A stretch of 64,000 bases of DNA, taken from NCBI GenBank assembly GCA_004431415.1, contig QPMI01000575.1:1-64000 (forward strand). Reading direction: 5' to 3'. Each line of letters opens with the position of its first letter. Position 1 is the first letter of the stretch. This DNA comes from Cyanophora paradoxa CCMP329. Its lineage: Eukaryota; Plantae; Glaucophyta. The notes beneath the pieces were generated by a model. It was not told the DNA's origin. It made no database searches and worked only from the letters and a program-made list of their open reading frames with translations. Positions 22,815 through 48,687 of this stretch are shown piece by piece. The translations under genes were made by a program, and so were the position numbers.

Positions 22815-22828
22815 TTGATGGGAGCGCA

Positions 22829-27830: not shown

Positions 27831-28366
27831 TTGTAATCAGATGTTAAAAAGATTGTCAATTTTTCATAAATCCTTCTCTGTAAAGTTTTGGTTAAACAAT
27901 TGGAAAACTGCGGTTACACAACAGTTACACGGCGGTTACACTTGGTTACGCGGGGTTACAGGTGAGGTTACGTAGTGATTTTTCGATAAACCACACCATT
28001 TTCAGTGTGGTAATCGATAAAAATAACCATTTAGATCCATTGAGGTTACGGTTACGCAACTTTTTGAATTCTCTTTAAAAAATGGCTGGGGGTCTTTTTA
28101 TAGGTGAAGGTCTAAAACTTGCGTAACCGCGTAACTTGCGTAACCTCACGAGATTTATGGTGTCTTTTTGGTATTTTTAAGGTTACGTAACGTTTTTACT
28201 TACGTAACCTGTGTAACCTTAACGTAACCTTATTATAACATCTTAAAAATGTCATCTGTTATCAAACGGTAGCGGGTGCGATACATAAGATCATGTCACG
28301 AGAAGCGATAGGATCCGCTTGTGAAGCGATGAAAAAATGAAGCAAATCTTAAAACTTAAACAATAA

Positions 28367-28867
28367 GTGAGATACAGCGGAATGTACAATATGAACGCGT
28401 CGGATATCCTGACCTACATTAAGAGTATTACCCATATTCCTGTTCTCATCGATGCTGACCTATCTTTAAAGAAGGCAAACCCTAACACTATCTGTATTGT
28501 GCCGTATGATACTAAACATCGTGCGTATTTCGAAATGTTTCGTAAAAACTTGGGTTATTCACCTAATACCCGTTTCGTCTGCTTTCTCACATTAGAGACT
28601 CACTATATTCTTGTTCCGGTTCTTACTGAAACATCGTGTAAATCGTTTATCTCTAAGATCATCTCTAAATGGTCTATTAACCTACCTGCGCAATCTAATG
28701 AAACTAAGGAGTGCGTCATATGCCTTGATGACTGTAAAACTAAAATACAAATGTCTTGTTTGACATGTTTCGCCAAAATGTGCAACACATGCTTTTTACA
28801 GTTGAAGAGATCAGAGAGCTTTAAATGTCCGATCTGTCGTAATGACATAAAGACGCAACGTGATTAA
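28367..28867 (+). CDS. RING-finger protein A, copy 2
   Basis: Identical translation to 19810-20310. Confidence 0.8.
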   Translation: MRYSGMYNMNASDILTYIKSITHIPVLIDADLSLKKANPNTICIVPYDTKHRAYFEMFRKNLGYSPNTRFVCFLTLETHYILVPVLTETSCKSFISKIISKWSINLPAQSNETKECVICLDDCKTKIQMSCLTCFAKMCNTCFLQLKRSESFKCPICRNDIKTQRD

Positions 28868-29150
28868 TGTAAAAATTGATGGAAGATAAAAGTTTTTCTG
28901 AGTGTGCCGCTCTGACATGAAAGAGAAAATGAATAATGGACATTGGGTAACTTTGGCGACATTGCATAATAAGAAGATTGAGCTTATCCATCGGGAGGTT
29001 GATCTTAAACACACAAAAAGACAAGACCATGAAAGACTACAAAATGTTAAACAGTATATTGATGCAATCGATGTAATGATAGATGTAGTGAATACGATCG
29101 CTAAAATTAAGACCATGTGAATTTCATCGATAGCGCAAGCGCTATTTTTA

Positions 29151-29450
29151 TTACTTCTGTGTGCGGTTTTCAAGCTTCTGCCTCAATCTGAATGTTATAA
29201 TGCTACCATCATGTCGTGCCTTCCCCCTTTGAATCGCTTTCGATATTTCCCCGGGTGTGTTCTCATCGAAATCAATGAATCGGGAAACCTTCTTTATAAA
29301 CTGTCTCTGTAAATATCCGGGTAGTTGGTTGATATTACACCCGTCGTTTTTCTTAACAAGGTTCTCGTAAATAATGCTACTGCGGTCATCCTGTGATAAA
29401 TCGGGATTTTGAAGCTGTTCTATGAAAGCGTCGGGAATCCGTGAAGTCAT
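29151..29450 (-). CDS. 99-aa hypothetical protein, copy 2
   Basis: Identical translation to 20594-20893. Confidence 0.6.
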   Translation of the reverse strand: MTSRIPDAFIEQLQNPDLSQDDRSSIIYENLVKKNDGCNINQLPGYLQRQFIKKVSRFIDFDENTPGEISKAIQRGKARHDGSIITFRLRQKLENRTQK

Positions 29451-29830
29451 TGTAGGTTACACTGTCTATTTTGGCGGGTTGTCATTTTTTGCATCGGTTA
29501 CATAGAGGTTACAAGAAGTTACAGAGGAGTTACGCAACAGGTTACGTAGATATTTTACAACTGCAAGACGACTTTCAGTGTTATAATACAGGAGATTTAG
29601 TATTTTTAACACTGGCGGTTACGGTTACGCAACTTTTTAAATTCTTTTTAAAAAATGGCGGGGGGGTCTCTCTCAGATAAAATAGTGAAAACTTGCGTAA
29701 CCGCGTAACTTGCGTAACCTCTACGACATTATGGTGTCTTTTCTCTGTTATTTTTGGTTACGTAACGTTTTTATCTACGTAACTTGTGTAACCTTAACGT
29801 AACCTTATTATTTAACATTATTCATCTTTA

Positions 29831-30366
29831 TTATCCATTTGCATATAACTTAGGTTCTAATGCTTCCATTCCGTCAAAAAATAGTTTAGTTCTACAAACT
29901 GAACACTTAGCATTCTCATGTGATTCAAGTGAAGAGAGGAAACAATTAGGACAAATAAGAGTATTGCAAACGATACAGCCTTTATTATTTATGTTAGTGT
30001 CAATGTTTTCAAGACAGATAGGACATGTTTCATTCGGACTCTCAAAGTTTTCCCTCGCGAATGACTTAATAATGATATCTACGAACCATTTGGTGTTCTC
30101 CTCATCAAGATATGGGACTAACATGTAACGGTGTTTATATGAGAATGCAAAACGAATAGGTTGAAGGGCATGATATCCCGCCTTTTGCTTCCATGCATCA
30201 AATACCCCTTTATTCTTGCGGTTCTTTGAATAAAGTATATAATCTGTCTTTCGTTGGCTTTCATTAAGAATTTCGTATAATTCTTATCATTCAGTTTATC
30301 TGATGCATTGACTATGGGATATGGCGAAATAGACTGTGAAAACGTCAATATATCGTTTAAATTCAT
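29831..30366 (-). CDS. RING-finger protein B, copy 2 (1-bp frameshift in homopolymer)
   Basis: Split ORFs 30118-30366 and 29831-30124 match 21274-21810. Confidence 0.75.
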
Positions 30367-30400
30367 TTGGTTGTGCTACTATCTGTTACAGTTTCTTTAA

Positions 30401-30778
30401 TTAGCTTAGAGTTTTTTCAATGTCGAACACTCTTTTGAGAACGCCATCAATTCTTACAGCATGTGATTTAATCCCGAAAATGCGCTTAATCACGATTCCG
30501 ATGGCTGTTTTTGAAATCGGAAAGTCTATAAGCTCTTCTATTTCAGCATGGATTACATCGGAAGGTGTATAATCACCGTCATTACTTAACCTGTAACTAT
30601 GCATTAAATACGCTTCCACATCAGACATCCCATGTTGATATTCGCCAATCCCATGTTGATATTCGCCAATCCCATGTTGATATTTGTCCATCCCATGTTG
30701 ATATTTGCCCATCTCATGTTGATATTCGCCCATTTCCGTTTCATCCATAACAATTTCGATGTATTCCACGTCTTCCAT
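30401..30778 (-). CDS. Repeat/winged-helix-like protein, copy 2
   Basis: Identical translation to 21845-22222. Confidence 0.6.
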   Translation of the reverse strand: MEDVEYIEIVMDETEMGEYQHEMGKYQHGMDKYQHGIGEYQHGIGEYQHGMSDVEAYLMHSYRLSNDGDYTPSDVIHAEIEELIDFPISKTAIGIVIKRIFGIKSHAVRIDGVLKRVFDIEKTLS

Positions 30779-30928
30779 GTTACACTTAACTGTTACATGT
30801 TAAATTTTGTTACAAGTTTTACGGTTGATGTCCAAAAATTGACACTGTAAAACACAGAAAGGTATTTAAGGGTTTGACTTAAAAGAGAAGTGAAAGGGAA
30901 TAATTTCTTACCTTCCATTAGAGAATCA

Positions 30929-31369
30929 ATGGCGAATACTCGGAAATCAAACCAAGAGCTTATCGCTATTCAGAAAGGCGACCCGTTTGTAGAGATTGGA
31001 AAAAAGAAACCTGAGTTATCAATTGAAGAACAGGAAGAAAAGGCAAGGTTGAGAAGAGAGAAAGACAGGGAAAGAAAACGTGTAGCTTATCAGAAGAAGA
31101 AAGAAGAGAGACTCGCAAATGGCGAAAAAACAATACTGACAGCTGAGGAGCTGGAAAAGAGAGCCATATATTTACGTCGTCGATATGAAGAGGACGCGGA
31201 ATATAGAAAAAAGAGAATTGAGAGTGCAAACAATTACCTGAAACAGAAAAGGCGTGAGAAGAAGACGGAGCCAAAACCCAAAGTGCAAACAGTGCCTAAG
31301 AAATCGGGAAGACCTCGAAAGTATCCCGACCCGATCACATCTTTATCGGAAAAAAGCGTAGCGAATTGA
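30929..31369 (+). CDS. AT-hook basic protein, copy 2
   Basis: Identical translation to 22374-22814. Confidence 0.65.
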   Translation: MANTRKSNQELIAIQKGDPFVEIGKKKPELSIEEQEEKARLRREKDRERKRVAYQKKKEERLANGEKTILTAEELEKRAIYLRRRYEEDAEYRKKRIESANNYLKQKRREKKTEPKPKVQTVPKKSGRPRKYPDPITSLSEKSVAN

Positions 31370-31550
31370 TTGATGGGAGCGCAAAAATTGACGCTTTACT
31401 TTCTCCTTTTTATAACCTAAGCCAAATCATTAAAGTGCCGTGGGCAACCGAAAAGCATTTAAGGACATCCCGAGAAGATAATTTAAACCTGGGAGTTTCT
31501 CACTTCCTCGGATTATTTTCTCTGAGAAATTTAAGAATCAATCGCGAAAA

Positions 31551-34432
31551 ATGAATGCTAACACGAAAATCGCAACTCCCTGTGAGAGACTCGGTAACCT
31601 GTGCAAATTTACACCTGAGAAACATAATTGGGGTTCTTTCCTACATTGTCTCACTCCGAATACTGACAGCGAGACTGTCATAGAGTATTTCGACCATCAG
31701 ATTACGGAAAGGATTAATGATGATTTGAAGAAAGGCAAAAAACCGACCTACGCCGAATGCATTCAGCCAAACGAAATAACACGTGTCTATCTGGATTATG
31801 ACGGCTATGTGGATCTTAAACCGGATGTTGCCGATAACTACAAGGAAGCCGATGAAATCATTCGTGAAATGCGCAAGAGACTACACGAACTCACCGGTGC
31901 TACCATTGCTGTGTCCGTGCGTCATCGTCCTATCCATTTCGTTAAGGAAGACGTGACCCAATTTAAGGTATCGGGGCATTTCGTCTTTACCGATCTGTGC
32001 TGTCGTCATGAAGACATCCCGAAATTCTTAAATGTAATCGGACTTACGCCAAAGGTGGATTATGACCCACTCGTTTATAAGACAAGGCAGGCGCTTGTTT
32101 GTCTGGGTAGTTGCAAGGGTAAATGGTTGGATTCCCAAAACAAGACTAAACGCGATGTTGATAAGGATGTAGTATTTACCAAATTCGTGGATTGTGAAAC
32201 CATGTATGACAGCGACTTTTTCGCGCAATTCACGGATTGCCCCACTGTGCTTATCGATGAATCAAACATGTATATGTTTGATGCTAACCTAACCCAAGAT
32301 GAGAAAAACGAACGGTCGGCAAAGGCGGAAGTTGCAAAAGAGCAAATGAAGGAGGAAGGCAAGACTGAAACCAAGAAGGAGACGACCAAGAAGGAGACGA
32401 CCAAGAAGGAGACCACAACAAAGAAGAAGGAGACGGCGACGACAAGCAAAAAAACAACAAAGAAAACGGAGAGTGAAGAGCAGCCGGAGGAGTCTAATAA
32501 CGTTTCATTTGAGAAACTGAGAGAAGTCGTGATGGGTCTTAGTGCTGAAAGATCGGATACATACGAAGGTTGGCTTAATGTTGGTTTCGCAATCGCGAAT
32601 GTTGGAGAGGAAAACAATATACCACCCACGAAACAGGAGGCGCTGTTTCACGAATACTCCGAGAAAAGCCCTAAGTATGATTATGATGAATGCGCGAACA
32701 AATGGATGAGTATCCGCAAAGGCAAAAAATCCGGTTCCGAAAACAAAACTATAACTTTCGGCTCACTTGTGCATTATCTGAGAGAGGATAACCCGGACAC
32801 GTATTATGGACTGTTTAAACCAAGCCGACAGTTTGCATTTATCGATGAGGAGGTGTGTATGGATGAGAATGACTATTCCGATGTTAGCGCCATGAATGAT
32901 AAGATGGCTCAAATCAAATTAGAAATGGATAAGACGCTATTAAGTCAAGGTCTCCCACTTCCTGTTAGCAAGATCTGTAAAGCATTAATTGGCTACAAAG
33001 TGCGGTTTTCACGTGGTCTGTGGTTGATCCTGAATGAGAAAACCGGATTTTGGAAGGTAGATAATAAGTATGATGGTGGTATGATAACTCTTATCGGTGA
33101 GGTTGTCGGGAAAGCATACTTAGACCGGGAGAACCATTGGGCTACCAAGGCGGCAAAGGCGGAGGAACAGAGCGATAAAAAGGAATTCGCAGTAAAGGCA
33201 GCCGCCTGTGCAAAAATTGCGCAAAAACTTAACTGTGGAGGTTACACGAAAGGACTTCTTACATATCTCTCTCATGACCTTTACGATGAGACATTTGCCG
33301 ATAGGTTGGATTCAGTCGCGAATGTTGTTGGCTTTGACGATGGCGTTTATGATCTTAACACGTTTGAGTTCCGTAATGGTCGTTCTTCTGATATGATGAC
33401 TAAGACAGTCTGTTATAACTATGATATTCCGGTGGATCCTGAGAAGGTCAAACGACTCAATGACTTCTACATGGATATCACAGGTGACAATGTCGAACTT
33501 GCAAGATACATTAAGGCTGTTTATGCCAAGTCTCTAACGGGTAAAAATAACATGCAGTTTTCTATATGTTTACGGGTATCGGCTCGAACGGAAAGAGCGT
33601 AATCGAAAATTTCATGCATAAGACATTTGGCGACTACTCACGAAATATGAGCATTGGGATTTTCACGAAGGAGGATAAAGGTAATGGAATGATTCCGGAA
33701 CTTGCGAATAAGCAAGGTGTTAGGCTCGTCCATACAAACGAACCAAACACGGGTAGCAAACTGTTGGCGGGACAAATCAAGAATTTCACAGGTTGTGATG
33801 AGATCACAGTAAGAACCCTTTTCAAAGAACCAATTTCATTTGCTCCGATGTTTGTTATCGTCATCCTCTGTAATAATAACCTCGAATTTGATCAGCCCGA
33901 CAATGCAGTAGCGCGCCGCTTCCGTTCTGTTCCATTTCAGCAGGTCTATGCCGTCGAACCTAAGCCCGGACAGAAGAAAGCGGATAAAGACCTTACCGGG
34001 TTGTTGAATCCCGATAATGACGTAAATGGTGAATGGCGCAGGGCAAACATGGAGATTCTCATAGACATGCTTAAAAACCATGATGTTAATCATATAATCG
34101 ACCATCCGCCCCAATGCATCCTCGAACATTCCGCTAATTATCTCGCGGACAGCGACCGTATCGGCACATTCCTAAGGGACAACTACGCTTTGGCGGAGGA
34201 TAACACGAAATACATAATATGTGACGATCTGTTTAAGGATTGCTCAAATACGATGAGAGATGTTGATAGAAGAGCAGCGATAACAGGACGAGCTGTAAGC
34301 AATAAGGTGATGGAGGTGTTTAAGATCGGCTCGACTGTAAAAAAGGTTGGTGGAAAATCGAAGCGTGTTTATCTCGGTCTCACAAAGAACCGCGCTAACG
34401 ATTTTGAAGACGATGACGAAGATGTGGAATAA
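31551..34432 (+). CDS. AEP primase-PriCT-2-D5/SF3 helicase, copy 2 (one 1-bp frameshift; consensus ~960 aa)
   Basis: ORFs 31551-33602 and 33566-34432 join if the T4 run at ~33558 is T5, as in the other two copies. Confidence 0.9.
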
Positions 34433-34503
34433 AACTTATTGGAAAATATACTATTGATATCTTTTTTATGATCATGAACCGTAAGACTCGGTTCTTAATA
34501 GAA

Positions 34504-34812
34504 GGTTACTTTAAGGTTTCTCGGAGTTACTCGGAGTTACTCAGAGAGGTTACGTAGCGGTTCCGTTAATTTGTTACCATTTTCAGTATTGATATACCGA
34601 ATTTCTCTTTATTTCACAGCTGTGAGTTACGGTTACGCAACTTTTTGAATTCTTTCTGAAAATTTGGAGGGGGGTCTTTTTATAGGTGAAGGTCTAAAAC
34701 TTGCGTAACCGCGTAACTTGCGTAACCTCTACGACATTATGGTGTCATTTCTCTATTATTTTGGGTTACGTAACGTTTCTCCTTGCGTAACTTGTGTAAC
34801 CTCAACGTAACC
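34504..34812. repeat. GTTAC/GTAAC cassette R4 (truncated copy 25948-26172; inverted copy 39094-39400)
   Basis: Same core, directly downstream of the primase-helicase gene. Confidence 0.9.
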
Positions 34813-34957
34813 TTCTTATTAATACATAGATATCACATGTTCTCTCTTGTTATCATTTGTTGGCGTTATAGAATGTAGGTAAGACATCGGAAAAAGTGAA
34901 AAAATGACATCTTAACTACATATAAGGTTGTTGTGATATATTCATTTGATAATTAAG

Positions 34958-35182
34958 ATGGCTTGCAAACTCCCCGAACGCATCGACATGGGTGAATATC
35001 TCATTAAAGACCTTCCGGAAGAGTTAAAACCACTTGCACGCAAGATGGACTTAAAAGGAATACGAGAATACTATGAGAGAACCTACCCTGATTTATACAA
35101 GAAAAAACAGCGTGTCGAACCATCGGAATGCATCACTGTTAAGGTTCCAAAAGGCGTAAAGGTCAGAATTCAGAGAATCTAA
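34958..35182 (+). CDS. 74-aa hypothetical protein (mirror copy 38725-38949, minus strand)
   Basis: ATG ORF with AAAAATGA at 34900-34907. Confidence 0.6.
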   Translation: MACKLPERIDMGEYLIKDLPEELKPLARKMDLKGIREYYERTYPDLYKKKQRVEPSECITVKVPKGVKVRIQRI

Positions 35183-35246
35183 CACGCTGAATAATATAAA
35201 AAACAATTGTAACGCATGATTAATAGAAACAAAAAAAACATTTAAA

Positions 35247-35564
35247 ATGAAGAGCTTCTACGCTATCAGAGAGCATGACGCCCTTCTTTTTTATACGCGA
35301 TTCTTTGAGAATCCGGAAAACAGATGTATGGAGAAATTCGAAGACTTCTGTAAAGAATTTACCCAAATCGCTTATGGTAACACTGAAATACGAAGACCAT
35401 CAAGAAAGCAAAAATTAAAAGACCTTTTTCAAAACATGATCTTGTCATTTGATGCTGATAATAGAAATACTAAATATCATAATACAGTCACAGGATCTGT
35501 TAGGGAACGTCTCCAAGAGAAATTAGCAAAACGAAGAATATCACAATGTGTGACCTATTGTTAA
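35247..35564 (+). CDS. 105-aa hypothetical protein (mirror copy 38343-38660, minus strand)
   Basis: ATG ORF, protein-like composition. Confidence 0.6.
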   Translation: MKSFYAIREHDALLFYTRFFENPENRCMEKFEDFCKEFTQIAYGNTEIRRPSRKQKLKDLFQNMILSFDADNRNTKYHNTVTGSVRERLQEKLAKRRISQCVTYC

Positions 35565-35681
35565 ACGCACTTTAAAAAGGGTCTTTTTTGCAAACCTCCA
35601 CAGGATCGTGTAGGTTTATGTTTCGATCTACGCAAACAGCTACAATGTCCTGTATAGGTAGTTTTGAAAATTAAAGCGTTT

Positions 35682-36191
35682 TCACTCTTTCCTGTTCCGA
35701 TAACATTCGCATTCTGAAAGAAATGACCTTAATATTAACTTCCTTATTGCGTCGCGACCTTCCCAATTGTTGTGATCTTTACCCAAAAGTTTGACAAAGT
35801 CTAAGATATGGATAAACTCGGAACGCGATATATCATTAGGTAAATCAAACGGCTCCGTTTCTATTTCCCAATAATTCACTTTGTAGAAATATAACAAACC
35901 GTCAGATCCCTTAGCATAATGTATATCGGGATTCTCTGTAAAATATCCGATTTGCTCAATTTTCCATATTATGTCGCTATTATCTAATTCATTCATAAAC
36001 ATTATCAATCTGTCGATATTGATTTTAATTAAGGAAGTATTAACTGAAAACACGGGCTTTCCGTTGTACATATACGGCGTCTCCATCATTGCAATCAATC
36101 TTAGCACGAGCGTTAGGATGTCTCCCATGCCGCTTAAATGGTTTTCATTTTTTGCCCGCTCAAAAATTGACGCCCCACAAGAACAAACCAT
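35682..36191 (-). CDS. Hypothetical protein, probable start MGDIL at ~36128 (mirror copy 37720-38226, frameshifted)
   Basis: 169-codon ORF with globular composition; AAAAATGA just upstream of the MGDIL start. Confidence 0.55.
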   Translation of the reverse strand: MVCSCGASIFERAKNENHLSGMGDILTLVLRLIAMMETPYMYNGKPVFSVNTSLIKINIDRLIMFMNELDNSDIIWKIEQIGYFTENPDIHYAKGSDGLLYFYKVNYWEIETEPFDLPNDISRSEFIHILDFVKLLGKDHNNWEGRDAIRKLILRSFLSECECYRNRKE

Positions 36192-36362
36192 AACCTGTAA
36201 TGCAACGCTCTGTTATTTATGGTCGAATCTAATGATGCTACATATGTATTTGTCGAAAAAGAGAATTAACACACTCTAAACCTCTTTCGAAATGCTATAA
36301 TCCCCATTGTTTACTTTTCACTTTGTGAAAAATCCCTTTTGTATGTGGAAATATCTTTTTTT

Positions 36363-37508
36363 TCAGAGAGTCTTTAAGAATTGGTCAATACATCCTTTTA
36401 TGTTTTTTTCAGTGTATGGTATTCTTAAAAGCTTTAAATTATGAGTCTCACAGTATCTGTTTTTAATTCCATCTCTAATCTGTGTTATTTTAAATCCTTC
36501 TTCTCCCCCAAACCACTTAACAGGTTCAAAATGTTGTTGACCGTCAAACTCTATAACAATGTTCAGGCTTGGTATGAAAAAGTCAAACCTCAATTTATTT
36601 TTATAAAAGCAATCAGAAAACATATACTCTGTCTTGTGAGCAATGTCCAAATCTTCTAAATACCTTTTTATTTCCCGTTCTCCATGTGATGATTTACAGT
36701 GGGGACAGCCGCTTTTTTGTGAAAGATGATAATTTGGAACCTGAGAGAACTCACTATTACATTTTCGGCAAGTTAGGTTAACTTTTGTTTTCGAATCAAT
36801 ATAATTGACCTTTGAGTAATCATAATCATCTCCATGCACCTCTCTTGCTTTTTCTACAAACTGTCGCGTTGTTAACCTGAAAGTCTCGGAACGTTTTCTA
36901 TGACTACAATGTTTACAACCCTGTCCGCTTAAATGGTTTGCCGGTTCCATTAAAAAGAATTGCTCACAAGTCAGACACTGTATCTTAACTTTTACTTTTG
37001 AATTCACATAGTCTGCATGCTGATAATCATATTTTCCATTATGGGCTTCTGTTGCCTTTGCAACAAATGTGTCTTTTGTCAATCTCTGCTTTTGTTTCAT
37101 TGTTTTAATGCCTTTTTGGGGACATCCACTCCCCATTATATGACTGTTTGGCGTTTGAAAATAAAAATGATTGCATTCAAAGCAATAGATTTTAACCTTT
37201 GTTTGACTGTTAATATAGTCGACCTCATCATATCCATACTGTTCACCGTGCTTTGCTTTCGCTCTTTCTATAAACTCTTCTTTGGTATGTCTATTTTTAT
37301 CTTTAATTGTTTGGATTTTACACAATTTACACCCGCAACCTGATAAATGGTCATGGGGTGTTTGAGTAAACACCGTTTTGCAAGAAAGGCAAACTATCGA
37401 AACCCTTGTTGAGTTATCAATGTATTCTACATTGGCGTAGTTATATTTGTCTCCATGCTTGGCTTTTGCCTTTTCTACAAAACTCTCGGTTGTATCTTTT
37501 ACAGGCAT
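36363..37508 (-). CDS. 381-aa endonuclease: four DUF723-like Zn-ribbon repeats plus C-terminal PD-(D/E)XK/Vsr-like nuclease domain
   Basis: Four repeats of F..KA...HG..Y.Y....Y..S..KV.I.CxxC...F...P..H..G.GC; C-terminal LRFDFFIPSLNIVIEFDGQQHF..RDGIKNRYC..LLRIPY. Confidence 0.85.
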   Translation of the reverse strand: MPVKDTTESFVEKAKAKHGDKYNYANVEYIDNSTRVSIVCLSCKTVFTQTPHDHLSGCGCKLCKIQTIKDKNRHTKEEFIERAKAKHGEQYGYDEVDYINSQTKVKIYCFECNHFYFQTPNSHIMGSGCPQKGIKTMKQKQRLTKDTFVAKATEAHNGKYDYQHADYVNSKVKVKIQCLTCEQFFLMEPANHLSGQGCKHCSHRKRSETFRLTTRQFVEKAREVHGDDYDYSKVNYIDSKTKVNLTCRKCNSEFSQVPNYHLSQKSGCPHCKSSHGEREIKRYLEDLDIAHKTEYMFSDCFYKNKLRFDFFIPSLNIVIEFDGQQHFEPVKWFGGEEGFKITQIRDGIKNRYCETHNLKLLRIPYTEKNIKGCIDQFLKTL

Positions 37509-39470
37509 CTTATTAAAACTATAAACTGTTATACTTTTAAATAAATTTGTTCCGCGATATTTCCACATACAAAAGGGATTTTTCACAAAGTGAAAAGTAA
37601 ACAATGGGGATTATAGCATTTCGAAAGAGGTTTAGAGTGTGTTAATTCTCTTTTTCGACAAATACATATGTAGCATCATTAGATTCGACCATAAATAACA
37701 GAGCGTTGCATTACAGGTTATGGTTTGTTCTTGTGGGGCGTCAATTTTTGAGCGGGCAAAAAATGAAAACCATTTAAGCGGCATGGGAGACATCCTAACG
37801 CTCGTGCTAAGATTGATTGCAATGATGGAGACGCCGTATATGTACAACGGAAAGCCCGTGTTTTCAGTTAATACTTCCTTAATTAAAATCAATATCGACA
37901 GATTGATAATGTTTATGAATGAATTAGATAATAGCGACATAATATGGAAATTGAGCAAATCGGATATTTTACAGAGAATCCCGATATACATTATGCTAAG
38001 GATCTGACGGTTTGTTATATTTCTACAAAGTGAATTATTGGGAAATAGAAACGGAGCCGTTTGATTTACCTAATGATATATCGCGTTCCGAGTTTATCCA
38101 TATCTTAGACTTTGTCAAACTTTTGGGTAAAGATCACAACAATTGGAAGGTCGCGACGCAATAAGGAAGTTAATATTAAGGTCATTTCTTTCAGAATGCG
38201 AATGTTATCGGAACAGGAAAGAGTGAAAACGCTTTAATTTTCAAAACTACCTATACAGGACATTGTAGCTGTTTGCGTAGATCGAAACATAAACCTACAC
38301 GATCCTGTGGAGGTTTGCAAAAAGACCCTTTTTAAAGTGCGTTTAACAATAGGTCACACATTGTGATATTCTTCGTTTTGCTAATTTCTCTTGGAGACGT
38401 TCCCTAACAGATCCTGTGACTGTATTATGATATTTAGTATTTCTATTATCAGCATCAAATGACAAGATCATGTTTTGAAAAAGGTCTTTTAATTTTTGCT
38501 TTCTTGATGGTCTTCGTATTTCAGTGTTACCATAAGCGATTTGGGTAAATTCTTTACAGAAGTCTTCGAATTTCTCCATACATCTGTTTTCCGGATTCTC
38601 AAAGAATCGCGTATAAAAAAGAAGGGCGTCATGCTCTCTGATAGCGTAGAAGCTCTTCATTTTAAATGTTTTTTTTGTTTCTATTAATCATGCGTTACAA
38701 TTGTTTTTTATATTATTCAGCGTGTTAGATTCTCTGAATTCTGACCTTTACGCCTTTTGGAACCTTAACAGTGATGCATTCCGATGGTTCGACACGCTGT
38801 TTTTTCTTGTATAAATCAGGGTAGGTTCTCTCATAGTATTCTCGTATTCCTTTTAAGTCCATCTTGCGTGCAAGTGGTTTTAACTCTTCCGGAAGGTCTT
38901 TAATGAGATATTCACCCATGTCGATGCGTTCGGGGAGTTTGCAAGCCATCTTAATTATCAAATGAATATATCACAACAACCTTATATGTAGTTAAGATGT
39001 CATTTTTTCACTTTTTCCGATGTCTTACCTACATTCTATAACGCCAACAAATGATAACAAGAGAGAACATGTGATATCTATGTATTAATAGAAGGTTACG
39101 TTGAGGTTACACAAGTTACGCAAGGAGAAACGTTACGTAACCCAAATAATAGAGAAATGACACCATAATGTCGTAGAGGTTACGCAAGTTACGCGGTTAC
39201 GCAAGTTTTAGACCTTCACCTATAAAAAGACCCCCTCCAAATTTTCAGAAAGAATTCAAAAAGTTGCGTAACCGTAACTCACAGCTGTGAAATAAAGAGA
39301 AATTCGGTATATCAATACTGAAAATGGTAACAAATTAACGGAACCGCTACGTAACCTCTCTGAGTAACTCCGAGTAACTCCGAGAAACCTTAAAGTAACC
39401 TTCTATTAAGAACCGAGTCTTACGGTTCATGATCATAAAAAGATATCAATAGTATATTTTCCAATAAGTT

Positions 39471-42351
39471 TTATTCCACATCTTCGTCATCGTCTTCAAA
39501 ATCGTTAGCGCGGTTCTTTGTGAGACCGAGATAAACACGCTTCGATTTTCCACCAACCTTTTTTACAGTCGAGCCGATCTTAAACACCTCCATCACCTTA
39601 TTGCTTACAGCTCGTCCTGTTATCGCTGCTCTTCTATCAACATCTCTCATCGTATTTGAGCAATCCTTAAACAGATCGTCACATATTATGTATTTCGTGT
39701 TATCCTCCGCCAAAGCGTAGTTGTCCCTTAGGAATGTGCCGATACGGTCGCTGTCCGCGAGATAATTAGCGGAATGTTCGAGGATGCATTGGGGCGGATG
39801 GTCGATTATATGATTAACATCATGGTTTTTAAGCATGTCTATGAGAATCTCCATGTTTGCCCTGCGCCATTCACCATTTACGTCATTATCGGGATTCAAC
39901 AACCCGGTAAGGTCTTTATCCGCTTTCTTCTGTCCGGGCTTAGGTTCGACGGCATAGACCTGCTGAAATGGAACAGAACGGAAGCGGCGCGCTACTGCAT
40001 TGTCGGGCTGATCAAATTCGAGGTTATTATTACAGAGGATGACGATAACAAACATCGGAGCAAATGAAATTGGTTCTTTGAAAAGGTTCTTACTGTGATC
40101 TCATCACAACCTGTGAAATTCTTGATTTGTCCCGCCAACAGTTTGCTACCCGTGTTTGGTTCGTTTGTATGGACGAGCCTAACACCTTGCTTATTCGCAA
40201 GTTCCGGAATCATTCCATTACCTTTATCCTCCTTCGTGAAAATCCCAATGCTCATATTTCGTGAGTAGTCGCCAAATGTCTTATGCATGAAATTTTCGAT
40301 TACGCTCTTTCCGTTCGAGCCGATACCCGTAAACATATAGAAAAACTGCATGTTATTTTTACCCGTTAGAGACTTGGCATAAACAGCCTTAATGTATCTT
40401 GCAAGTTCGACATTGTCACCTGTGATATCCATGTAGAAGTCATTGAGTCGTTTGACCTTCTCAGGATCCACCGGAATATCATAGTTATAACAGACTGTCT
40501 TAGTCATCATATCAGAAGAACGACCATTACGGAACTCAAACGTGTTAAGATCATAAACGCCATCGTCAAAGCCAACAACATTCGCGACTGAATCCAACCT
40601 ATCGGCAAATGTCTCATCGTAAAGGTCATGAGAGAGATATGTAAGAAGTCCTTTCGTGTAACCTCCACAGTTAAGTTTTTGCGCAATTTTTGCACAGGCG
40701 GCTGCCTTTACTGCGAATTCCTTTTTATCGCTCTGTTCCTCCGCCTTTGCCGCCTTGGTAGCCCAATGGTTCTCCCGGTCTAAGTATGCTTTCCCGACAA
40801 CCTCACCGATAAGAGTTATCATACCACCATCATACTTATTATCTACCTTCCAAAATCCGGTTTTCTCATTCAGGATCAACCACAGACCACGTGAAAACCG
40901 CACTTTGTAGCCAATTAATGCTTTACAGATCTTGCTAACAGGAAGTGGGAGACCTTGACTTAATAGCGTCTTATCCATTTCTAATTTGATTTGAGCCATC
41001 TTATCATTCATGGCGCTAACATCGGAATAGTCATTCTCATCCATACACACCTCCTCATCGATAAATGCAAACTGTCGGCTTGGTTTAAACAGTCCATAAT
41101 ACGTGTCCGGGTTATCCTCTCTCAGATAATGCACAAGTGAGCCGAAAGTTATAGTTTTGTTTTCGGAACCGGATTTTTTGCCTTTGCGGATACTCATCCA
41201 TTTGTTCGCGCATTCATCATAATCATACTTAGGGCTTTTCTCGGAGTATTCGTGAAACAGCGCCTCCTGTTTCGTGGGTGGTATATTGTTTTCCTCTCCA
41301 ACATTCGCGATTGCGAAACCAACATTAAGCCAACCTTCGTATGTATCCGATCTTTCAGCACTAAGACCCATCACGACTTCTCTCAGTTTCTCAAATGAAA
41401 CGTTATTAGACTCCTCCGGCTGCTCTTCACTCTCCGTTTTCTTTGTTGTTTTTTTGCTTGTCGTCGCCGTCTCCTTCTTCTTTGTTGTGGTCTCCTTCTT
41501 GGTCGTCTCCTTCTTGGTCGTCTCCTTCTTGGTTTCAGTCTTGCCTTCCTCCTTCATTTGCTCTTTTGCAACTTCCGCCTTTGCCGACCGTTCGTTTTTC
41601 TCATCTTGGGTTAGGTTAGCATCAAACATATACATGTTTGATTCATCGATAAGCACAGTGGGGCAATCCGTGAATTGCGCGAAAAAGTCGCTGTCATACA
41701 TGGTTTCACAATCCACGAATTTGGTAAATACTACATCCTTATCAACATCGCGTTTAGTCTTGTTTTGGGAATCCAACCATTTACCCTTGCAACTACCCAG
41801 ACAAACAAGCGCCTGCCTTGTCTTATAAACGAGTGGGTCATAATCCACCTTTGGCGTAAGTCCGATTACATTTAAGAATTTCGGGATGTCTTCATGACGA
41901 CAGCACAGATCGGTAAAGACGAAATGCCCGATACCTTAAATTGGGTCACGTCTTCCTTAACGAAATGGATAGGACGATGACGCACGGACACAGCAATGGT
42001 AGCACCGGTGAGTTCGTGTAGTCTCTTGCGCATTTCACGAATGATTTCATCGGCTTCCTTGTAGTTATCGGCAACATCCGGTTTAAGATCCACATAGCCG
42101 TCATAATCCAGATAGACACGTGTTATTTCGTTTGGCTGAATGCATTCGGCGTAGGTCGGTTTTTTGCCTTTCTTCAAATCATCATTAATCCTTTCCGTAA
42201 TCTGATGGTCGAAATACTCTATGACAGTCTCGCTGTCAGTATTCGGAGTGAGACAATGTAGGAAAGAACCCCAATTATGTTTCTCAGGTGTAAATTTGCA
42301 CAGGTTACCGAGTCTCTCACAGGGAGTTGCGATTTTCGTGTTAGCATTCAT
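39471..42351 (-). CDS. AEP primase-PriCT-2-D5/SF3 helicase, copy 3 (two 1-bp frameshifts)
   Basis: Reverse complement of copies 1 and 2; frameshifts fall at different homopolymers. Confidence 0.9.
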
Positions 42352-42532
42352 TTTTCGCGATTGATTCTTAAATTTCTCAGAGAAAATAATCCGAGGAAGT
42401 GAGAAACTCCCAGGTTTAAATTATCTTCTCGGGATGTCCTTAAATGCTTTTCGGTTGCCCACGGCACTTTAATGATTTGGCTTAGGTTATAAAAAGGAGA
42501 AAGTAAAGCGTCAATTTTTGCGCTCCCATCAA

Positions 42533-42971
42533 TCAATTCGCTACGCTTTTTCCGATAAAGATGTGATCGGGTCGGGATACTTTCGAGGTCTTCCGATTTC
42601 TTAGGCACTGTTTGCACTTTGGGTTTTGGCTCCGTCTTCTTCTCACGCCTTTTCTGTTTCAGGTAATTGTTTGCACTCTCAATTCTCTTTTTTCTATATT
42701 CCGCGTCCTCTTCATATCGACGACGTAAATATATGGCTCTCTTTTCCAGCTCCTCAGCTGTCAGTATTGTTTTTTCGCCATTTGCGAGTCTCTCTTCTTT
42801 CTTCTTCTGATAAGCTACACGTTTTCTTTCCCTGTCTTTCTCTCTTCTCAACCTTGCCTTTTCTTCCTGTTCTTCAATTGATAACTCAGGTTTCTTTTTT
42901 CCAATCTCTACAAACGGGTCGCCTTTCTGAATAGCGATAAGCTCTTGGTTTGATTTCCGAGTATTCGCCAT
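42533..42971 (-). CDS. AT-hook basic protein, copy 3 (frameshift near end)
   Basis: Mirror of 22374-22814. Confidence 0.6.
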
Positions 42972-43122
42972 TGATTCTCTAATGGAAGGTAAGAAATTAT
43001 TCCCTTTCACTTCTCTTTTAAGTCAAACCCTTAAATACCTTTCTGTGTTTTACAGTGTCAATTTTTGGACATCAACCGTAAAACTTGTAACAAAATTTTA
43101 ACATGTAACAGTTAAGTGTAAC

Positions 43123-43500
43123 ATGGAAGACGTGGAATACATCGAAATTGTTATGGATGAAACGGAAATGGGCGAATATCAACATGAGATGGGCAAATAT
43201 CAACATGGGATGGACAAATATCAACATGGGATTGGCGAATATCAACATGGGATTGGCGAATATCAACATGGGATGTCTGATGTGGAAGCGTATTTAATGC
43301 ATAGTTACAGGTTAAGTAATGACGGTGATTATACACCTTCCGATGTAATCCATGCTGAAATAGAAGAGCTTATAGACTTTCCGATTTCAAAAACAGCCAT
43401 CGGAATCGTGATTAAGCGCATTTTCGGGATTAAATCACATGCTGTAAGAATTGATGGCGTTCTCAAAAGAGTGTTCGACATTGAAAAAACTCTAAGCTAA
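43123..43500 (+). CDS. Repeat/winged-helix-like protein, copy 3
   Basis: Identical translation to copy 1. Confidence 0.6.
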   Translation: MEDVEYIEIVMDETEMGEYQHEMGKYQHGMDKYQHGIGEYQHGIGEYQHGMSDVEAYLMHSYRLSNDGDYTPSDVIHAEIEELIDFPISKTAIGIVIKRIFGIKSHAVRIDGVLKRVFDIEKTLS

Positions 43501-43534
43501 TTAAAGAAACTGTAACAGATAGTAGCACAACCAA

Positions 43535-44070
43535 ATGAATTTAAACGATATATTGACGTTTTCACAGTCTATTTCGCCATATCCCATAGTCAATGCATCA
43601 GATAAACTGAATGATAAGAATTATACGAAATTCTTAATGAAAGCCAACGAAAGACAGATTATATACTTTATTCAAAAGAACCGCAAGAATAAAGGGTATT
43701 TGATGCATGGAAGCAAAAGGCGGGATATCATGCCCTTCAACCTATTCGTTTTGCATTCTCATATAAACACCGTTACATGTTAGTCCCATATCTTGATGAG
43801 GAGAACACCAAATGGTTCGTAGATATCATTATTAAGTCATTCGCGAGGGAAAACTTTGAGAGTCCGAATGAAACATGTCCTATCTGTCTTGAAAACATTG
43901 ACACTAACATAAATAATAAAGGCTGTATCGTTTGCAATACTCTTATTTGTCCTAATTGTTTCCTCTCTTCACTTGAATCACATGAGAATGCTAAGTGTTC
44001 AGTTTGTAGAACTAAACTATTTTTTGACGGAATGGAAGCATTAGAACCTAAGTTATATGCAAATGGATAA
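43535..44070 (+). CDS. RING-finger protein B, copy 3 (1-bp frameshift)
   Basis: Mirror of 21274-21810. Confidence 0.75.
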
Positions 44071-44447
44071 TAAAGATGAATAATGTTAAATAATAAGGTT
44101 ACGTTAAGGTTACACAAGTTACGTAGATAAAAACGTTACGTAACCAAAATAACAGAGAAAAGACACCATAATGTCGTAGAGGTTACGCAAGTTACGCGGT
44201 TACGCAAGTTTTCACTATTTTATCTGAGAGAGACCCCCCGCCATTTTTAAAAAGAATTTAAAAAGTTGCGTAACCGTAACCGCCAGTGTTAAAAATACTA
44301 AATCTCCTGTATTATAACACTGAAAGTCGTCTTGCAGTTGTAAAATATCTACGTAACCTGTTGCGTAACTCCTCTGTAACTTCTTGTAACCTCTATGTAA
44401 CCGATGCAAAAAATGACAACCCGCCAAAATAGACAGTGTAACCTACA

Positions 44448-44745
44448 ATGACTTCACGGATTCCCGACGCTTTCATAGAACAGCTTCAAAATCCCGATTT
44501 ATCACAGGATGACCGCAGTAGCATTATTTACGAGAACCTTGTTAAGAAAAACGACGGGTGTAATATCAACCAACTACCCGGATATTTACAGAGACAGTTT
44601 ATAAAGAAGGTTTCCCGATTCATTGATTTCGATGAGAACACACCGGGGAAATATCGAAAGCGATTCAAAGGGGAAGGCACGACATGATGGTAGCATTATA
44701 ACATTCAGATTGAGGCAGAAGCTTGAAAACCGCACACAGAAGTAA
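44448..44745 (+). CDS. 99-aa hypothetical protein, copy 3 (frameshifted)
   Basis: Mirror of 20594-20893. Confidence 0.5.
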
Positions 44746-45028
44746 TAAAAATAGCGCTTGCGCTATCGATGAAATTCACATGGTCTTAATTTTAGCGATC
44801 GTATTCACTACATCTATCATTACATCGATTGCATCAATATACTGTTTAACATTTTGTAGTCTTTCATGGTCTTGTCTTTTTGTGTGTTTAAGATCAACCT
44901 CCCGATGGATAAGCTCAATCTTCTTATTATGCAATGTCGCCAAAGTTACCCAATGTCCATTATTCATTTTCTCTTTCATGTCAGAGCGGCACACTCAGAA
45001 AAACTTTTATCTTCCATCAATTTTTACA

Positions 45029-45529
45029 TTAATCACGTTGCGTCTTTATGTCATTACGACAGATCGGACATTTAAAGCTCTCTGATCTCTTCAACTGTAA
45101 ATAGCATGTGTTGCACATTTTGGCGAAACATGTCAAACAAGACATTTGTATTTTAGTTTTACAGTCATCAAGGCATATGACGCACTCCTTAGTTTCATTA
45201 GATTGCGCAGGTAGGTTAATAGACCATTTAGAGATGATCTTAGAGATAAACGATTTACACGATGTTTCAGTAAGAACCGGAACAAGAATATAGTGAGTCT
45301 CTAATGTGAGAAAGCAGACGAAACGGGTATTAGGTGAATAACCCAAGTTTTTACGAAACATTTCGAAATACGCACGATGTTTAGTATCATACGGCACAAT
45401 ACAGATAGTGTTAGGGTTTGCCTTCTTTAAAGATAGGTCAGCATCGATGAGAACAGGAATATGGGTAATACTCTTAATGTAGGTCAGGATATCCGACGCG
45501 TTCATATTGTACATTCCGCTGTATCTCAC
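45029..45529 (-). CDS. RING-finger protein A, copy 3 (one F>Y substitution)
   Basis: CNTCYLQ versus CNTCFLQ. Confidence 0.8.
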   Translation of the reverse strand: MRYSGMYNMNASDILTYIKSITHIPVLIDADLSLKKANPNTICIVPYDTKHRAYFEMFRKNLGYSPNTRFVCFLTLETHYILVPVLTETSCKSFISKIISKWSINLPAQSNETKECVICLDDCKTKIQMSCLTCFAKMCNTCYLQLKRSESFKCPICRNDIKTQRD

Positions 45530-46064
45530 TTATTGTTTAAGTTTTAAGATTTGCTTCATTTTTTCATCGCTTCACAAGCGGATCCTATCGCTTCTCGTGA
45601 CATGATCTTATGTATCGCACCCGCTACCGTTTGATAACAGATGACATTTTTAAGATGTTATAATAAGGTTACGTTAAGGTTACACAGGTTACGTAAGTAA
45701 AAACGTTACGTAACCTTAAAAATACCAAAAAGACACCATAAATCTCGTGAGGTTACGCAAGTTACGCGGTTACGCAAGTTTTAGACCTTCACCTATAAAA
45801 AGACCCCAGCCATTTTTTTAAAAGAATTCAAAAAGTTGCGTAACCGTAACCTCAATGGATCTAAATGGTTATTTTTATCGATTACCACACTGAAAATGGT
45901 GTGGTTTATCGAAAAATCACTACGTAACCTCACCTGTAACCCCGCGTAACCAAGTGTAACCGCCGTGTAACTGTTGTGTAACCGCAGTTTTCCAATTGTT
46001 TAACCAAAACTTTACAGAGAAGGATTTATGAAAAATTGACAATCTTTTTAACATCTGATTACAA

Positions 46065-46525
46065 ATGGATCAATTCATTTATTTCGGAAACACCACAAAC
46101 GAGCCGCACCATTACTACGGCGCTTACATGTTGGATATAAGCAACCTCCGTAATACTTGTTTCAGATCACTATTAGATATCAAAGATTGTGGCGTTAAAT
46201 TCGATGATGACACAGGGTATTGGTTTGTTTGCTACAAGTTTCACAGAATCTTAAAGCACTTTCCTACAATAAACCCATCGTTATCGATCCTGATTATCAT
46301 AATCGCCCGAAACGTCTATATTTCGTTGGTGACATAAAAACTAAACTACCTGAAATAGAAGCTAAACGTATATTTACCCAGGCATCATTACGTAAATACA
46401 TTAAAAACCAAGGCGCTTTATTTGATAAGCGACACCGTCTATGGTATGTCACCGATCCTGAAAATGAGATATGCAAGATCTTTAAGATGTTCGATTGTGA
46501 TCATCTAACATCTCTACGTGGTTAA
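46065..46525 (+). CDS. DUF5710-like protein, copy 3 (1-bp frameshift)
   Basis: Mirror of 18811-19272. Confidence 0.6.
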
Positions 46526-48687
46526 AGATAAGCAATTATCATGTATCATTTTTAGTTATCATGATATCATAGTATAACAGTGATTAAATGTAAGAATAAC
46601 AAGGTTACGTTAAGGTTACACAAGTTACGTAAGTAAAAACGTTACGTAACCTAAAAGTATAGAGAAATGACACCATAATGTCGTAGAGGTTACGCAAGTT
46701 ACGTGGTTACGCAAGTTTTAGACCTTCACCTATAAAAAGACCCCAGCCAAATTTTCAGAAAGAATTCAAAAAGTTGCGTAACCGTAACTCACAGTGACAA
46801 AATAGCGATAAATCAACCATTTTAACACTGAGAATGGTCTTAGTAATCGTAAAATATCTACGTAACCCATCACGTAACTCCATGTAACTTTTTAAACATT
46901 AATGTAACCTTCACATAAAAGTACGATCGAATACATAGAAGAGCAAAACAGTTTAATACAAGCAATTCGACAAAATGCACCACAGATACAATTTTATAAC
47001 CGTAAAAAACAAAATCCCAGTGAAAGGATTCCTTTGTTTTCTAACAATAACATTGATCAGCTATTGTAACAAAAGGACATAATATATCATTTTACTACAA
47101 TAGCTTTCTACAATGACATCTCCCCAAGATTCCCCTATTATTAAAGTGGACTCAAGGTTGACTCATATTAATCGTAAAAGTAGTAATAGTATATGGATTT
47201 TGTTACGAATTCAATACAAGGGTTGACTAAGTGGGTTGAGTTGACTCAAATTTCACAGGAAATAACAATGAATCAGAGTATAAAATGCATTTTTTGAATC
47301 AACTACACAACTAACACTGAGATTTTCACAATATAAGAGGTCCTTACTGAATATGGTATGTGTCACACCCAATTATTTCAAAAATCCTAAGGGTCCCCCT
47401 TAGAATCATTAAAACATGATAAAAACATATAAGTTTCATGTATAATTACGATTGGATTCAATAAGAGATCGATTTGTTTTATTTAACAAATGAATCATTT
47501 ATGGATCTTAATCGAGTTTAGCGATATATTTCCGATTAAATGAATTAAATTTAATTAAATTTAATCGAGAAAGTACATGAATATAATATCGATTAAATCA
47601 ATTAACAAACAGACCAATCACACATAGTAAAATGCGGAGTTTTAACCAGAGGCAAGATCTAATTGAGATTCAGTTATAATATTCGGAAATATATACAGAT
47701 TATCGATAGACTCAGTAAGACTAATCGGAAAATAAGAGAAATTTACGATAAAATATCGAAAAGAATACAAAATAATCGAAATAAATGAATATTCGATAAG
47801 ATATACACAGATTATCGATTGATTGAAATAGAATATACGAGATATATCAACAAAATCAATTAAGATAAGCCGAGGGTTAAAACTCCGCATTTTACTATGT
47901 GTTGCTCACACCGCCACAGGGTCAGGAGCACAAACGAAAGACGGCACTAGCCTCGAACGACATCAGATGGTTTGGAGCGTCCCCCGCCCCACCCGACGCG
48001 TGAAGCTGTGCTCGACCTCCCGTTGTCCCCTCCAAAACTCCAGCATCCGACGATGATGCGTACAGATGCCTCTTCCAGACGATGGTGCGCCTGGAAGGAC
48101 CCGACGCTAAGCCTCACTGGCCTCAGTCCGCGACGATGATGCGCCGCGGACGCCCTGCTCCGAGCGATGGTGCGCTCGAGCTCGCTCCGACGTCGAGTAC
48201 CAAGGGACGCCGCACTTGGATTTCGAATTTTGCCACCTGCGGTGACGAGACGTTGAGCCCGCGTCCGTCTGATGCAGGTCCGACCCGGTCACGTTCGGAT
48301 GGACGACGACCTCGGGCCCTCCCGGCCCTCAACCGCCGTACGTCCCCCGTCCCACCCAGCTGTCACAGGCGCCCTCCTCGACCCGTCCTGATCAGGGCCC
48401 GGGCAGGTCCGCGCCTCGGCTGTGGACGCCGGTCCACCGGACATAATCGGCACGACGCCTCCTTTCTTCCCGAAGGCAGGCCGTCGTCGGCACCGGTGCT
48501 TCTCCTTTCTGTCCCGAAAGCAAGCAAGCACCACTTCAACGTTGCAGATTGCAAATTGCAAAACCAACGAATATTCACAGCTGACTCCGCGCGCCCTTGC
48601 TTGCGAAGCTGCAGCTGACACCCCACGCCATCTCGCGCTGGCCTTTTCGAACTGGCGGAGACCTAACCGCCAAGAAAATGTTCGAAG

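What the first reader, a model, noticed from the sequence alone, without database searches (positions are those of the whole stretch)
36356..37555. The palindrome's only unique DNA is one nuclease gene in a central slot
Seen: the gene fills 1146 of the 1200 spacer bp, with 47 bp upstream and an A7 run from its stop codon to the arm boundary. Both arms point an AAAATTGA inward (36163 on +, 37741 on -), so one could drive sense and the other antisense transcription. Recombination between the arms would invert the gene without changing its context. Inference: this could be an exchangeable cargo slot (e.g. an anti-giant-virus or competitor-cutting nuclease), or the nuclease cut initiated the fold-back that created the palindrome.
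Basis: partly seen in the sequence, partly recalled or inferred. Interest (0 to 1): 0.75.

Follow-up and report, generated by a model that had tools for sequence, protein, structure and literature searches.

The report
Fold-back virus relic around nuclease
A virus-like DNA element inserted in a GC-rich, likely protist, chromosome is mirrored around one gene for a predicted DNA-cutting enzyme, and that gene is most likely just the last one kept before the element folded back on itself, not cargo in a purpose-built swappable slot.

Summary
The anatomy is real. The 1200-bp spacer holds one 381-aa ORF, and in 4 of 4 short-read runs laid it forms an identical 1260-bp contig with arm sequence on both sides, so the centre is not a read artefact. 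The 30.5-kb element has mirror-image ends, a 6-bp target duplication and a primase-D5 helicase, but no capsid, ATPase or integrase: a defective Polinton-like virus or virophage derivative. The protein has four Zn-finger repeats and a predicted Vsr-like (EDxHD-type) nuclease domain, a very common homing-endonuclease-like family. An 85-bp stretch private to the nuclease-bearing copy lies on both sides of the gene, so the second arm was most likely copied from the first (fold-back), leaving the gene in the loop. Other copies carry different DNA at this position, but nothing shows them to be palindromic. The inward AAAATTGA is a poor promoter candidate. Caveat: in all four runs an outer-arm gene has the spacer's depth, not 2-3 times it, so the 10-kb perfect arms are probably overstated by the assembly or differ between isolates. 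The scan noted similar fold-back Polinton derivatives in other genomes (unchecked).

The parts
17425..17430 (+). 6-bp target-site duplication, left copy (TGCTCA)
   Evidence: same six bases at 47903-47908
17431..17713 (+). Left terminus: 28-bp inverted repeat (17431-17458 / 17686-17713) closing a 283-nt fold; start of a terminal region that is highly repeated in the genome
   Evidence: z -8.8; 0 of 200 shuffles fold as well; depth at the mirrored end 47046-47887 about 120-270 times the spacer's in 4 runs
17625..26172 (+). Tandem first copy of the 8.55-kb gene block (153-aa, RING 161-aa, 99-aa, RING 178-aa, 125-aa, 146-aa, primase-helicase)
   Evidence: 99.87% to 26185-34730; junction 26173-26184 carries a short insert templated from a nearby repeat; junction not seen in the short-read contigs, which is inconclusive
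26185..36355 (+). Left arm of the palindrome
30929..31369 (+). 146-aa coiled-coil gene; three copies in the window but spacer-level depth in short reads
   Evidence: ratio to spacer 1.09, 0.81, 1.13, 1.21
31551..34432 (+). Primase-D5 (SF3) helicase gene, split by single-base frameshifts at different places in each copy (likely long-read errors)
   Evidence: PriCT_2 6.7e-14, D5_N 5e-10, DUF5906 9.4e-8; TIGR01613 above cutoff; differences listed
35682..36191 (-). 169-aa ORF downstream of and co-oriented with the nuclease; starts with a decayed repeat of the nuclease type (Cys pair and NHLSG motif) and contains the 'inward' AAAATTGA on its opposite strand
36271..36355 (-). 85-bp 3' flank of the nuclease, private to the nuclease-bearing copy, mirrored at 37556-37640
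   Evidence: other copies join the arm only from 37640 outward; no loose end listed at 37556; node depth 2.55 and 2.44 times the spacer
36363..37508 (-). Nuclease gene, 381 aa: four 69-aa Zn-finger repeats (DUF723/DUF4379 type) and a Vsr-like EDxHD-type catalytic domain at residues 271-381
37509..37555 (-). 47 bp upstream of the ATG; the fold-back junction lies at 37555/37556
   Evidence: junction present in 4 of 4 runs
37556..47902 (-). Right arm, inverted copy of the left arm down to the terminus; inner 0.75-0.9 kb supported as a second identical copy by short-read depth, outer part not
47903..47908 (+). 6-bp target-site duplication, right copy

Best explanation
The spacer is the loop of a likely fold-back (snap-back) derivative of a Polinton-like virus or virophage, and the predicted nuclease is most likely simply the last gene of the half that was kept. 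Shown: mirror-image ends, a 6-bp target duplication, a primase-D5 helicase and RING genes, no capsid, ATPase or integrase, a real centre, and an 85-bp flank private to the nuclease copy on both sides of the gene. Inferred: (1) a homing-endonuclease-like gene occupied a variable accessory position in one member of a multi-copy family; (2) during replication the growing strand switched, 47 bp upstream of the ATG, to the opposite strand just past the gene's 3' end and copied the left half back to the terminus, losing the virion and integrase half; (3) two good ends let a helper's integrase insert the molecule. The gene has probably lost its original upstream region and may be silent. The outer arms are probably not identical in the sequenced cultures.
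For: Ends and 6-bp duplication; AT-rich island in GC-rich flanks; gene content and absence of any other large ORF; 1260-bp contig = spacer plus 30 bp of arm on each side, 0 differences, in 4 of 4 runs; arm node beside the spacer at 2.4-2.6 times spacer depth with no third neighbour listed, while other copies enter only at 37640; nuclease co-oriented with a downstream ORF bearing a decayed repeat of the same type; 0 of 73 viral loci with this nuclease family have inverted repeats within 500 bp on both sides, so the slot is not a family trait; terminal hairpin-forming repeat as in non-pPolB virophages and PLVs.
Against: No parental copy with this nuclease followed by more genes was found, so the lost half is inferred. 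The 146-aa gene is at 0.8-1.2 times spacer depth in 4 of 4 runs and many outer-arm positions show only non-window letters at full depth: a simple, recent, perfect fold-back of 10 kb does not fit those runs. The junction falls very neatly just outside an intact ORF, which chance explains less well than a link to homing. No microhomology could be read at the junction without the parent.
Confidence: 0.6

Rival explanations
1. Complete or less symmetrical element, mis-assembled. Only the inner 0.75-1.2 kb on each side of the nuclease is a true inverted duplication. The long-read assembly filled the rest of the right arm (and perhaps the tandem copy) with reads from the left arm, by way of the inner repeat and the highly repeated ends; the true right part is a related copy with other accessory genes, a deleted arm, or the virion genes.
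For: 146-aa gene at spacer depth in 4 of 4 runs although the window has three copies; single-copy joints 42519>42925, 39335>45764 and 38431>38524 in 4 of 4 runs; non-window letters at full depth from 38435-38468 outward. Copies differ almost only by single-base indels in homopolymers. PMC10120064 (passages) warns of false consensus at such elements.
Against: The matching 6-bp duplication shows both ends belong to one insertion. No window-identical copy leaves the right arm before 38800. The runs may be other isolates than the window's. Contig depth is a rough measure, and assemblers drop minor variants. This rival changes the arm length, not the reading of the centre.
Confidence: 0.17
2. Aborted homing. 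The nuclease cut a nuclease-free sister genome; the broken end copied across the gene from the donor, found no match beyond it and switched strands, giving a palindrome whose inner part is the co-converted tract and whose outer arms come from two different family members.
For: Junction 47 bp outside an intact ORF; catalytic residues conserved and fold matching a homing endonuclease; nuclease-free relatives exist in the same genomes; inner arms look identical while outer arms look different; breaks are known to induce fold-back duplications in yeast (PMC10622511, passages).
Against: No cleavage site or activity shown; alleles that carry a homing endonuclease are usually immune to it (recalled); a plain template switch followed by divergence or recombination explains the same pattern; the yeast fold-backs in the passages read have spacers of 6-35 bp, not 1200.
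Confidence: 0.13
3. Exchangeable cargo slot in a propagating, capsid-less palindromic satellite: arms supply replication genes and promoters, the centre carries a swappable weapon against a giant virus or competitors.
For: The element keeps ends, a replicase and giant-virus-type early motifs (6 in one arm plus spacer against 1.5 expected); the neighbouring DNA differs among family copies; related Zn-finger nuclease domains are used in phage-satellite conflicts (PMC10448857, passages).
Against: Only one centre was seen, at single-copy-like depth, in 4 of 4 runs. The alternative neighbours at 37640 resemble each other instead of being the two ends of a different cargo. The private 85-bp flank is on both arms. 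The inward motif is 232 nt away inside another ORF. No recombinase or cassette sites were found.
Confidence: 0.08

Closest known systems
Endogenous virophages and Polinton-like viruses with non-pPolB replicases and terminal palindromes (Halocafeteria seosinensis, bioRxiv 10.64898/2026.07.28.741278; passages and section 7 read)
   Same: Low-GC insertion, terminal inverted repeats, target duplication, D5 primase-helicase, RING genes, patchy nuclease genes, fold-back sequence at the tips
   Different: No capsid, ATPase, protease or integrase here; the terminal stem closes a 227-nt loop instead of a 52-nt palindrome; the whole element is mirrored around one gene
Copy-back and snap-back defective viral genomes (PMC13506859, passages)
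   Same: One end of the genome copied back on itself, both ends functional, essential genes lost, helper needed
   Different: Described mainly for RNA viruses in the passages read; here a 30-kb DNA copy fixed in a chromosome, with an intact gene in the loop
EDxHD / Vsr-like homing endonucleases (I-Bth0305I, Hef type; PMC3239194, passages) and DUF723/DUF4379 repeat HEGs (PMC10448857, passages)
   Same: Catalytic-domain fold (Z 11.5, rmsd 2.5 A, 92 residues to 3r3p_B, tied with Vsr 1cw0_A Z 11.2); conserved E277, D309, E320, H326, D346; beads-on-a-string Zn-finger repeats
   Different: Four Zn-finger repeats instead of NUMOD motifs; free-standing, not in an intron; Vsr-like domain instead of T5orf172; activity and target untested
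Transpovirons (PMC11788076, passages)
   Same: Linear, capsid-less, terminal inverted repeats, giant-virus early promoter motif
   Different: About 7 kb episomes of giant viruses; this is 30 kb, chromosomal with a target duplication, and has a primase-D5 helicase (transpovirons have a superfamily 1 helicase, from the listing of PMC5499653)

Membership tests
Polinton-like virus / virophage (complete) | Major capsid protein, minor capsid protein and packaging ATPase | tested here: not met
   Only the primase-helicase and the nuclease exceed about 210 aa as credible genes in any of the three copies; no such Pfam, PHROG or NCBIfam hit in the element ORFs scanned. The assembly may have lost them.
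Polinton-like virus / virophage (complete) | Integrase (RVE or tyrosine recombinase) | tested here: not met
   No hit and no ORF of fitting size
Polinton-like virus / virophage (derivative) | Terminal inverted repeats with a short target-site duplication | tested here: met
   Mirror ends at 17431 and 47902 with a 6-bp duplication; that 5-6 bp is typical of RVE integrases is recalled
Polinton-like virus / virophage (derivative) | pPolB or primase-helicase replicase | tested here: met
   PriCT_2 + D5_N + DUF5906; nearest relatives only about 22-35% identical, so it cannot be placed in a named group
Polinton / Maverick | pPolB plus RVE integrase | tested here: not met
   Neither found
Transpoviron | About 7-kb episome with superfamily 1 helicase, carried by a giant virus | tested here: not met
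   30-kb chromosomal insertion with a D5-type helicase
Snap-back defective genome | Second arm copied from the same molecule as the first | tested here: met
   85-bp flank private to the nuclease copy on both sides; node depth about 2.5 times the spacer; shown for the inner arm only
Snap-back defective genome | Full-length parent with the same left half and the lost right half | tested here: inconclusive
   Relatives exist in the same genomes but contigs are too short to read them; none in IMG/VR or metagenomes
EDxHD (Vsr-like) homing endonuclease | Vsr-like fold with E, D, H, D catalytic residues | tested here: met
   Model pLDDT 94; best match 3r3p_B; E277 34 of 35, D309 35 of 35, H326 35 of 35, D346 34 of 35. 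The pairing with E170, D196, H213, D222 of I-Bth0305I is by order and spacing, not by residue-level superposition.
EDxHD (Vsr-like) homing endonuclease | Cuts a gene-free allele and homes into it | not testable with these tools
   Needs a cleavage assay; gene-free relatives exist
Exchangeable cassette system | Several copies with the same flanks around different genes, with recombination sites or a recombinase | tested here: inconclusive
   One centre only in 4 of 4 runs; alternative neighbours not shown to be central; no recombinase

The most novel reading that the evidence does not exclude
The palindrome is a frozen record of an aborted homing event in a protist DNA virus: its own Vsr-like nuclease cut a nuclease-free sister genome, repair copied across the gene and folded back, and the resulting two-ended, capsid-less hybrid with its own replicase was integrated by a helper. 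It could be the founder of a helper-dependent palindromic satellite that carries an armed nuclease.
Probability: 0.13. Interest if true: 0.7.

Novelty: new variant of a known kind. Interest (0 to 1): 0.42.

Why it matters
A chromosomal fold-back derivative of a primase-helicase Polinton-like virus or virophage is indirect evidence that these viruses replicate by strand displacement with template switching or hairpin priming, a model proposed but untested in the Halocafeteria preprint (section 7). It shows that molecules with two left ends and no integrase or capsid can still be inserted, and surveys keyed on capsid genes would miss them. The genome also holds nuclease-free sister alleles, so the target of a very large, little-studied nuclease family could be tested directly. 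The nuclease itself is an ordinary member of that family, and the cargo-slot idea has little support.

Tried and rejected
No whole genome is held for this window. No close relative of the helicase C-terminal piece in IMG/VR or metagenomes, of the 105-aa gene in IMG/VR, or of the terminal motif in IMG/VR and metagenomes. An alignment-based helicase scan returned 80 loci at 21-31% identity, many on giant-virus MAG contigs; too distant to place the element, and their neighbourhoods were not examined. Atlas searches with the 105-aa and 153-aa proteins gave no usable hit; a PDB sequence search with the nuclease gave none. No RNA holder listed, so expression is untested. The tandem-duplication junction was not among the listed joints, but it borders very high-depth terminal sequence and could have been dropped: inconclusive. 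No significant hairpin at either spacer boundary (z -0.03 and -1.34) and no inverted repeat or cassette site in the spacer. The sequence that other copies carry at 37640 was not found in the window. 'Read-level fold-back artefact' was rejected for the centre. Paper searches (listings only) showed no description of a palindromic endogenous PLV or virophage; the library lacks most subscription journals, and no supplements were read. Look-ups of earlier findings by place, sequence and a first word set gave nothing relevant.

Full report
OBSERVATION. Arms 26185-36355 and 37556-47708 are 99.7% identical and enclose 1200 bp. The ORF at 36363-37508 on the minus strand encodes 381 aa, with 47 bp upstream and seven A after the stop. 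The two AAAATTGA sites exist but are one site mirrored, and the motif occurs 16 times in the window.

THE ELEMENT. It runs from 17431 to 47902 (30,472 bp), is AT-rich inside flanks of 48-83% GC, has mirror-image ends and is bounded by the same six bases on both sides. It is therefore one insertion; that a 5-6 bp duplication points to an RVE-type integrase is recalled, not tested. The first 283 nt close on a 28-bp stem. One arm holds two RING genes, seven small ORFs without confident family and a primase-D5 helicase; no capsid, ATPase, polymerase or integrase was found, and the gaps between ORFs leave no room for one. An 8.55-kb block is also duplicated in tandem on the left. The three copies differ almost only by single-base indels in homopolymers (24 gap columns and 3 mismatches in 10,174 columns), the signature of long-read consensus error. 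The host was not identified; GC-rich flanks, a satellite array and CAG-rich ORFs suggest a protist or alga (inference).

THE NUCLEASE. It has four 69-aa repeats, Pfam DUF4379 (E 5.9e-17) and phrog_559 (E 4e-90). 2740 of 3459 candidates were homologous; the 120 listed are 33-45% identical and carry the DUF723 label. The model (pLDDT 94) matches, over residues 271-381, the catalytic domain of homing endonuclease I-Bth0305I (Z 11.5, rmsd 2.5 A, 92 aligned) and Vsr (Z 11.2), a tie (Foldseek agrees). In an alignment of 35 sequences (the query and 34 of the 120 listed hits) E277, D309, E320, H326 and D346 are kept in 34-35 of 35, fitting the composite EDxHD motif (PMC3239194, passages). Zn-finger repeats of this kind are the DNA-binding modules of phage homing endonucleases and of satellite proteins (PMC10448857, passages). 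It is a predicted active, homing-endonuclease-like enzyme of a common family. Of 80 IMG/VR loci with a relative, 7 had under 600 bp on one side and were left out; 0 of the other 73 have an inverted repeat within 500 bp on both sides. The central position is not a family trait.

IS THE CENTRE REAL? Twenty DNA runs of one coded organism hold 81-85% of the sampled words. I laid 4 of the 20 on 36100-48700 and 2 of those 4 on 37300-38800. In 4 of 4 there is one contig of exactly 1260 bp, 36326-37585, without a difference: the spacer plus 30 bp of arm on each side. Both junctions thus exist in short-read data from 2012, 2019 and 2024, and no listed contig carries this gene with another flank. The runs may be one strain and may include the window's source, so they are independent of the long-read chemistry but not necessarily of the lineage.

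HOW IT AROSE. The arm node beside the spacer has 2.55 and 2.44 times the spacer's depth and no loose end is listed at 37556. Other family copies join the arm only from 37640 outward (two contigs in X6, one listed in X11), and their inward sequences resemble each other. So the 85 bp between 37556 and 37640 belong to the nuclease-bearing copy alone, yet lie on both sides of the gene. On the left they are its natural 3' flank, followed by a co-oriented ORF that starts with a decayed repeat of the same type. The right arm therefore began as a copy of the left side of this same molecule. The simplest account is a template switch 47 bp upstream of the ATG to the opposite strand just past the stop, copying back to the terminus and losing the virion and integrase half, followed by integration in trans. 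This resembles copy-back and snap-back defective genomes (PMC13506859, passages) and fits the hairpin-priming model proposed for non-pPolB virophages and PLVs with terminal palindromes (bioRxiv 10.64898/2026.07.28.741278, passages and section 7). The switch, the lost half and the helper are inferred.

RESULTS AGAINST THE SIMPLE PICTURE. The window has three copies of the 146-aa gene, but its 485-bp (354-bp in X16) identical contig has 1.09, 0.81, 1.13 and 1.21 times the spacer's depth, and a version that skips the gene has about the same. The helicase has 3.2-5.1 times (two different helicase contigs were used). From 38435-38468 outward many positions show only non-window letters at full depth. 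A single-copy joint 39335>45764 that drops the helicase block is seen in 4 of 4 runs. In these cultures the perfect repeat seems to be 0.75-0.9 kb, and the outer arms differ in sequence and gene content. Either the assembly homogenised or mis-joined them (a known hazard; PMC10120064 and PMC8547959, passages) or the window comes from another isolate. Contig depth is rough and minor variants are dropped, so this is strong but not final. I put about 65% on the 10-kb perfect arms being overstated.

PROMOTER CLAIM. AAAATTGA is enriched in the element (6 in one arm plus spacer, 1.5 expected; 2 of 300 simulations reach 6) and is the giant-virus early motif also used by a PLV and a transpoviron (10.1101/2022.07.28.501842 and PMC11788076, passages). 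Allowing A or T at the fifth place, it lies 25-86 nt upstream in 5 of 11 genes, 159 nt upstream of the helicase, is absent within 300 nt in 4, and is 232 nt from the nuclease ATG, inside another ORF. It is unlikely to be the nuclease's promoter; the gene's own 47 bp lack the motif. No RNA data were available.

RIVALS. Mis-assembly of the outer arms (0.17 as the main story) leaves the centre as described. Aborted homing (0.13) would explain the neat junction and the identical-inner, different-outer pattern; breaks do trigger fold-backs in yeast (PMC10622511, passages), but nothing here shows a cut. The cargo slot (0.08) needs other palindromes with other centres; none was seen, although the neighbouring DNA does vary in the family, as nuclease genes do among Halocafeteria elements.

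NOVELTY. Five paper searches (listings only) showed no palindromic endogenous PLV or virophage. The scan's own notes describe fold-back Polinton derivatives in other genomes; they agree with my reading, were seen after I had formed it, and were not checked. This case differs from those notes in keeping a primase-helicase and an intact gene in the loop. Verdict: a new variant of a known kind, interest 0.42.

Noticed in passing
window 1-4600: End of a second AT-rich virus-like element: two C1q-domain genes, other fibre-like ORFs, an S-adenosylmethionine decarboxylase gene (PF02675, E 1.5e-10, 3830-4084), a decayed repeat of the nuclease type (3457-3684) and subterminal motifs shared with the palindromic element (4176-4231 to 47060-47116, 86%).
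   Followed up: partly
window 4520-4587: Near-perfect hairpin (about 26-bp stem plus a small GC stem-loop) at the apparent end of that second element; z -10.9.
   Followed up: partly
window 47046-47887: The terminal 850 bp has about 120-270 times the spacer's contig depth in 4 of 4 runs: a large family of elements or short derivatives shares these ends.
   Followed up: no
window 18617, 19557, 21131, 26138, 27175, 28114, 29688, 34696 and mirrors: A repeated intergenic module of about 200 bp (80-92% alike) separates gene blocks; short-read joints such as 39235>44426 and 39335>45764 fall near copies, suggesting that blocks are dropped by recombination between them.
   Followed up: partly
window 26173-26184: The tandem-duplication junction has a short insert templated from the adjacent repeat and a 2-bp overlap with the terminal region, typical of template switching.
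   Followed up: partly
window 5200-11400: Satellite array of 170/176-bp units, about 30-36 copies, directly beside the second element.
   Followed up: no
window 16486-16960 and 50865-51339: An identical 475-bp direct repeat in the host DNA on either side of the element.
   Followed up: no
window 21845-22222: 125-aa ORF built partly from five 21-bp tandem repeats.
   Followed up: no
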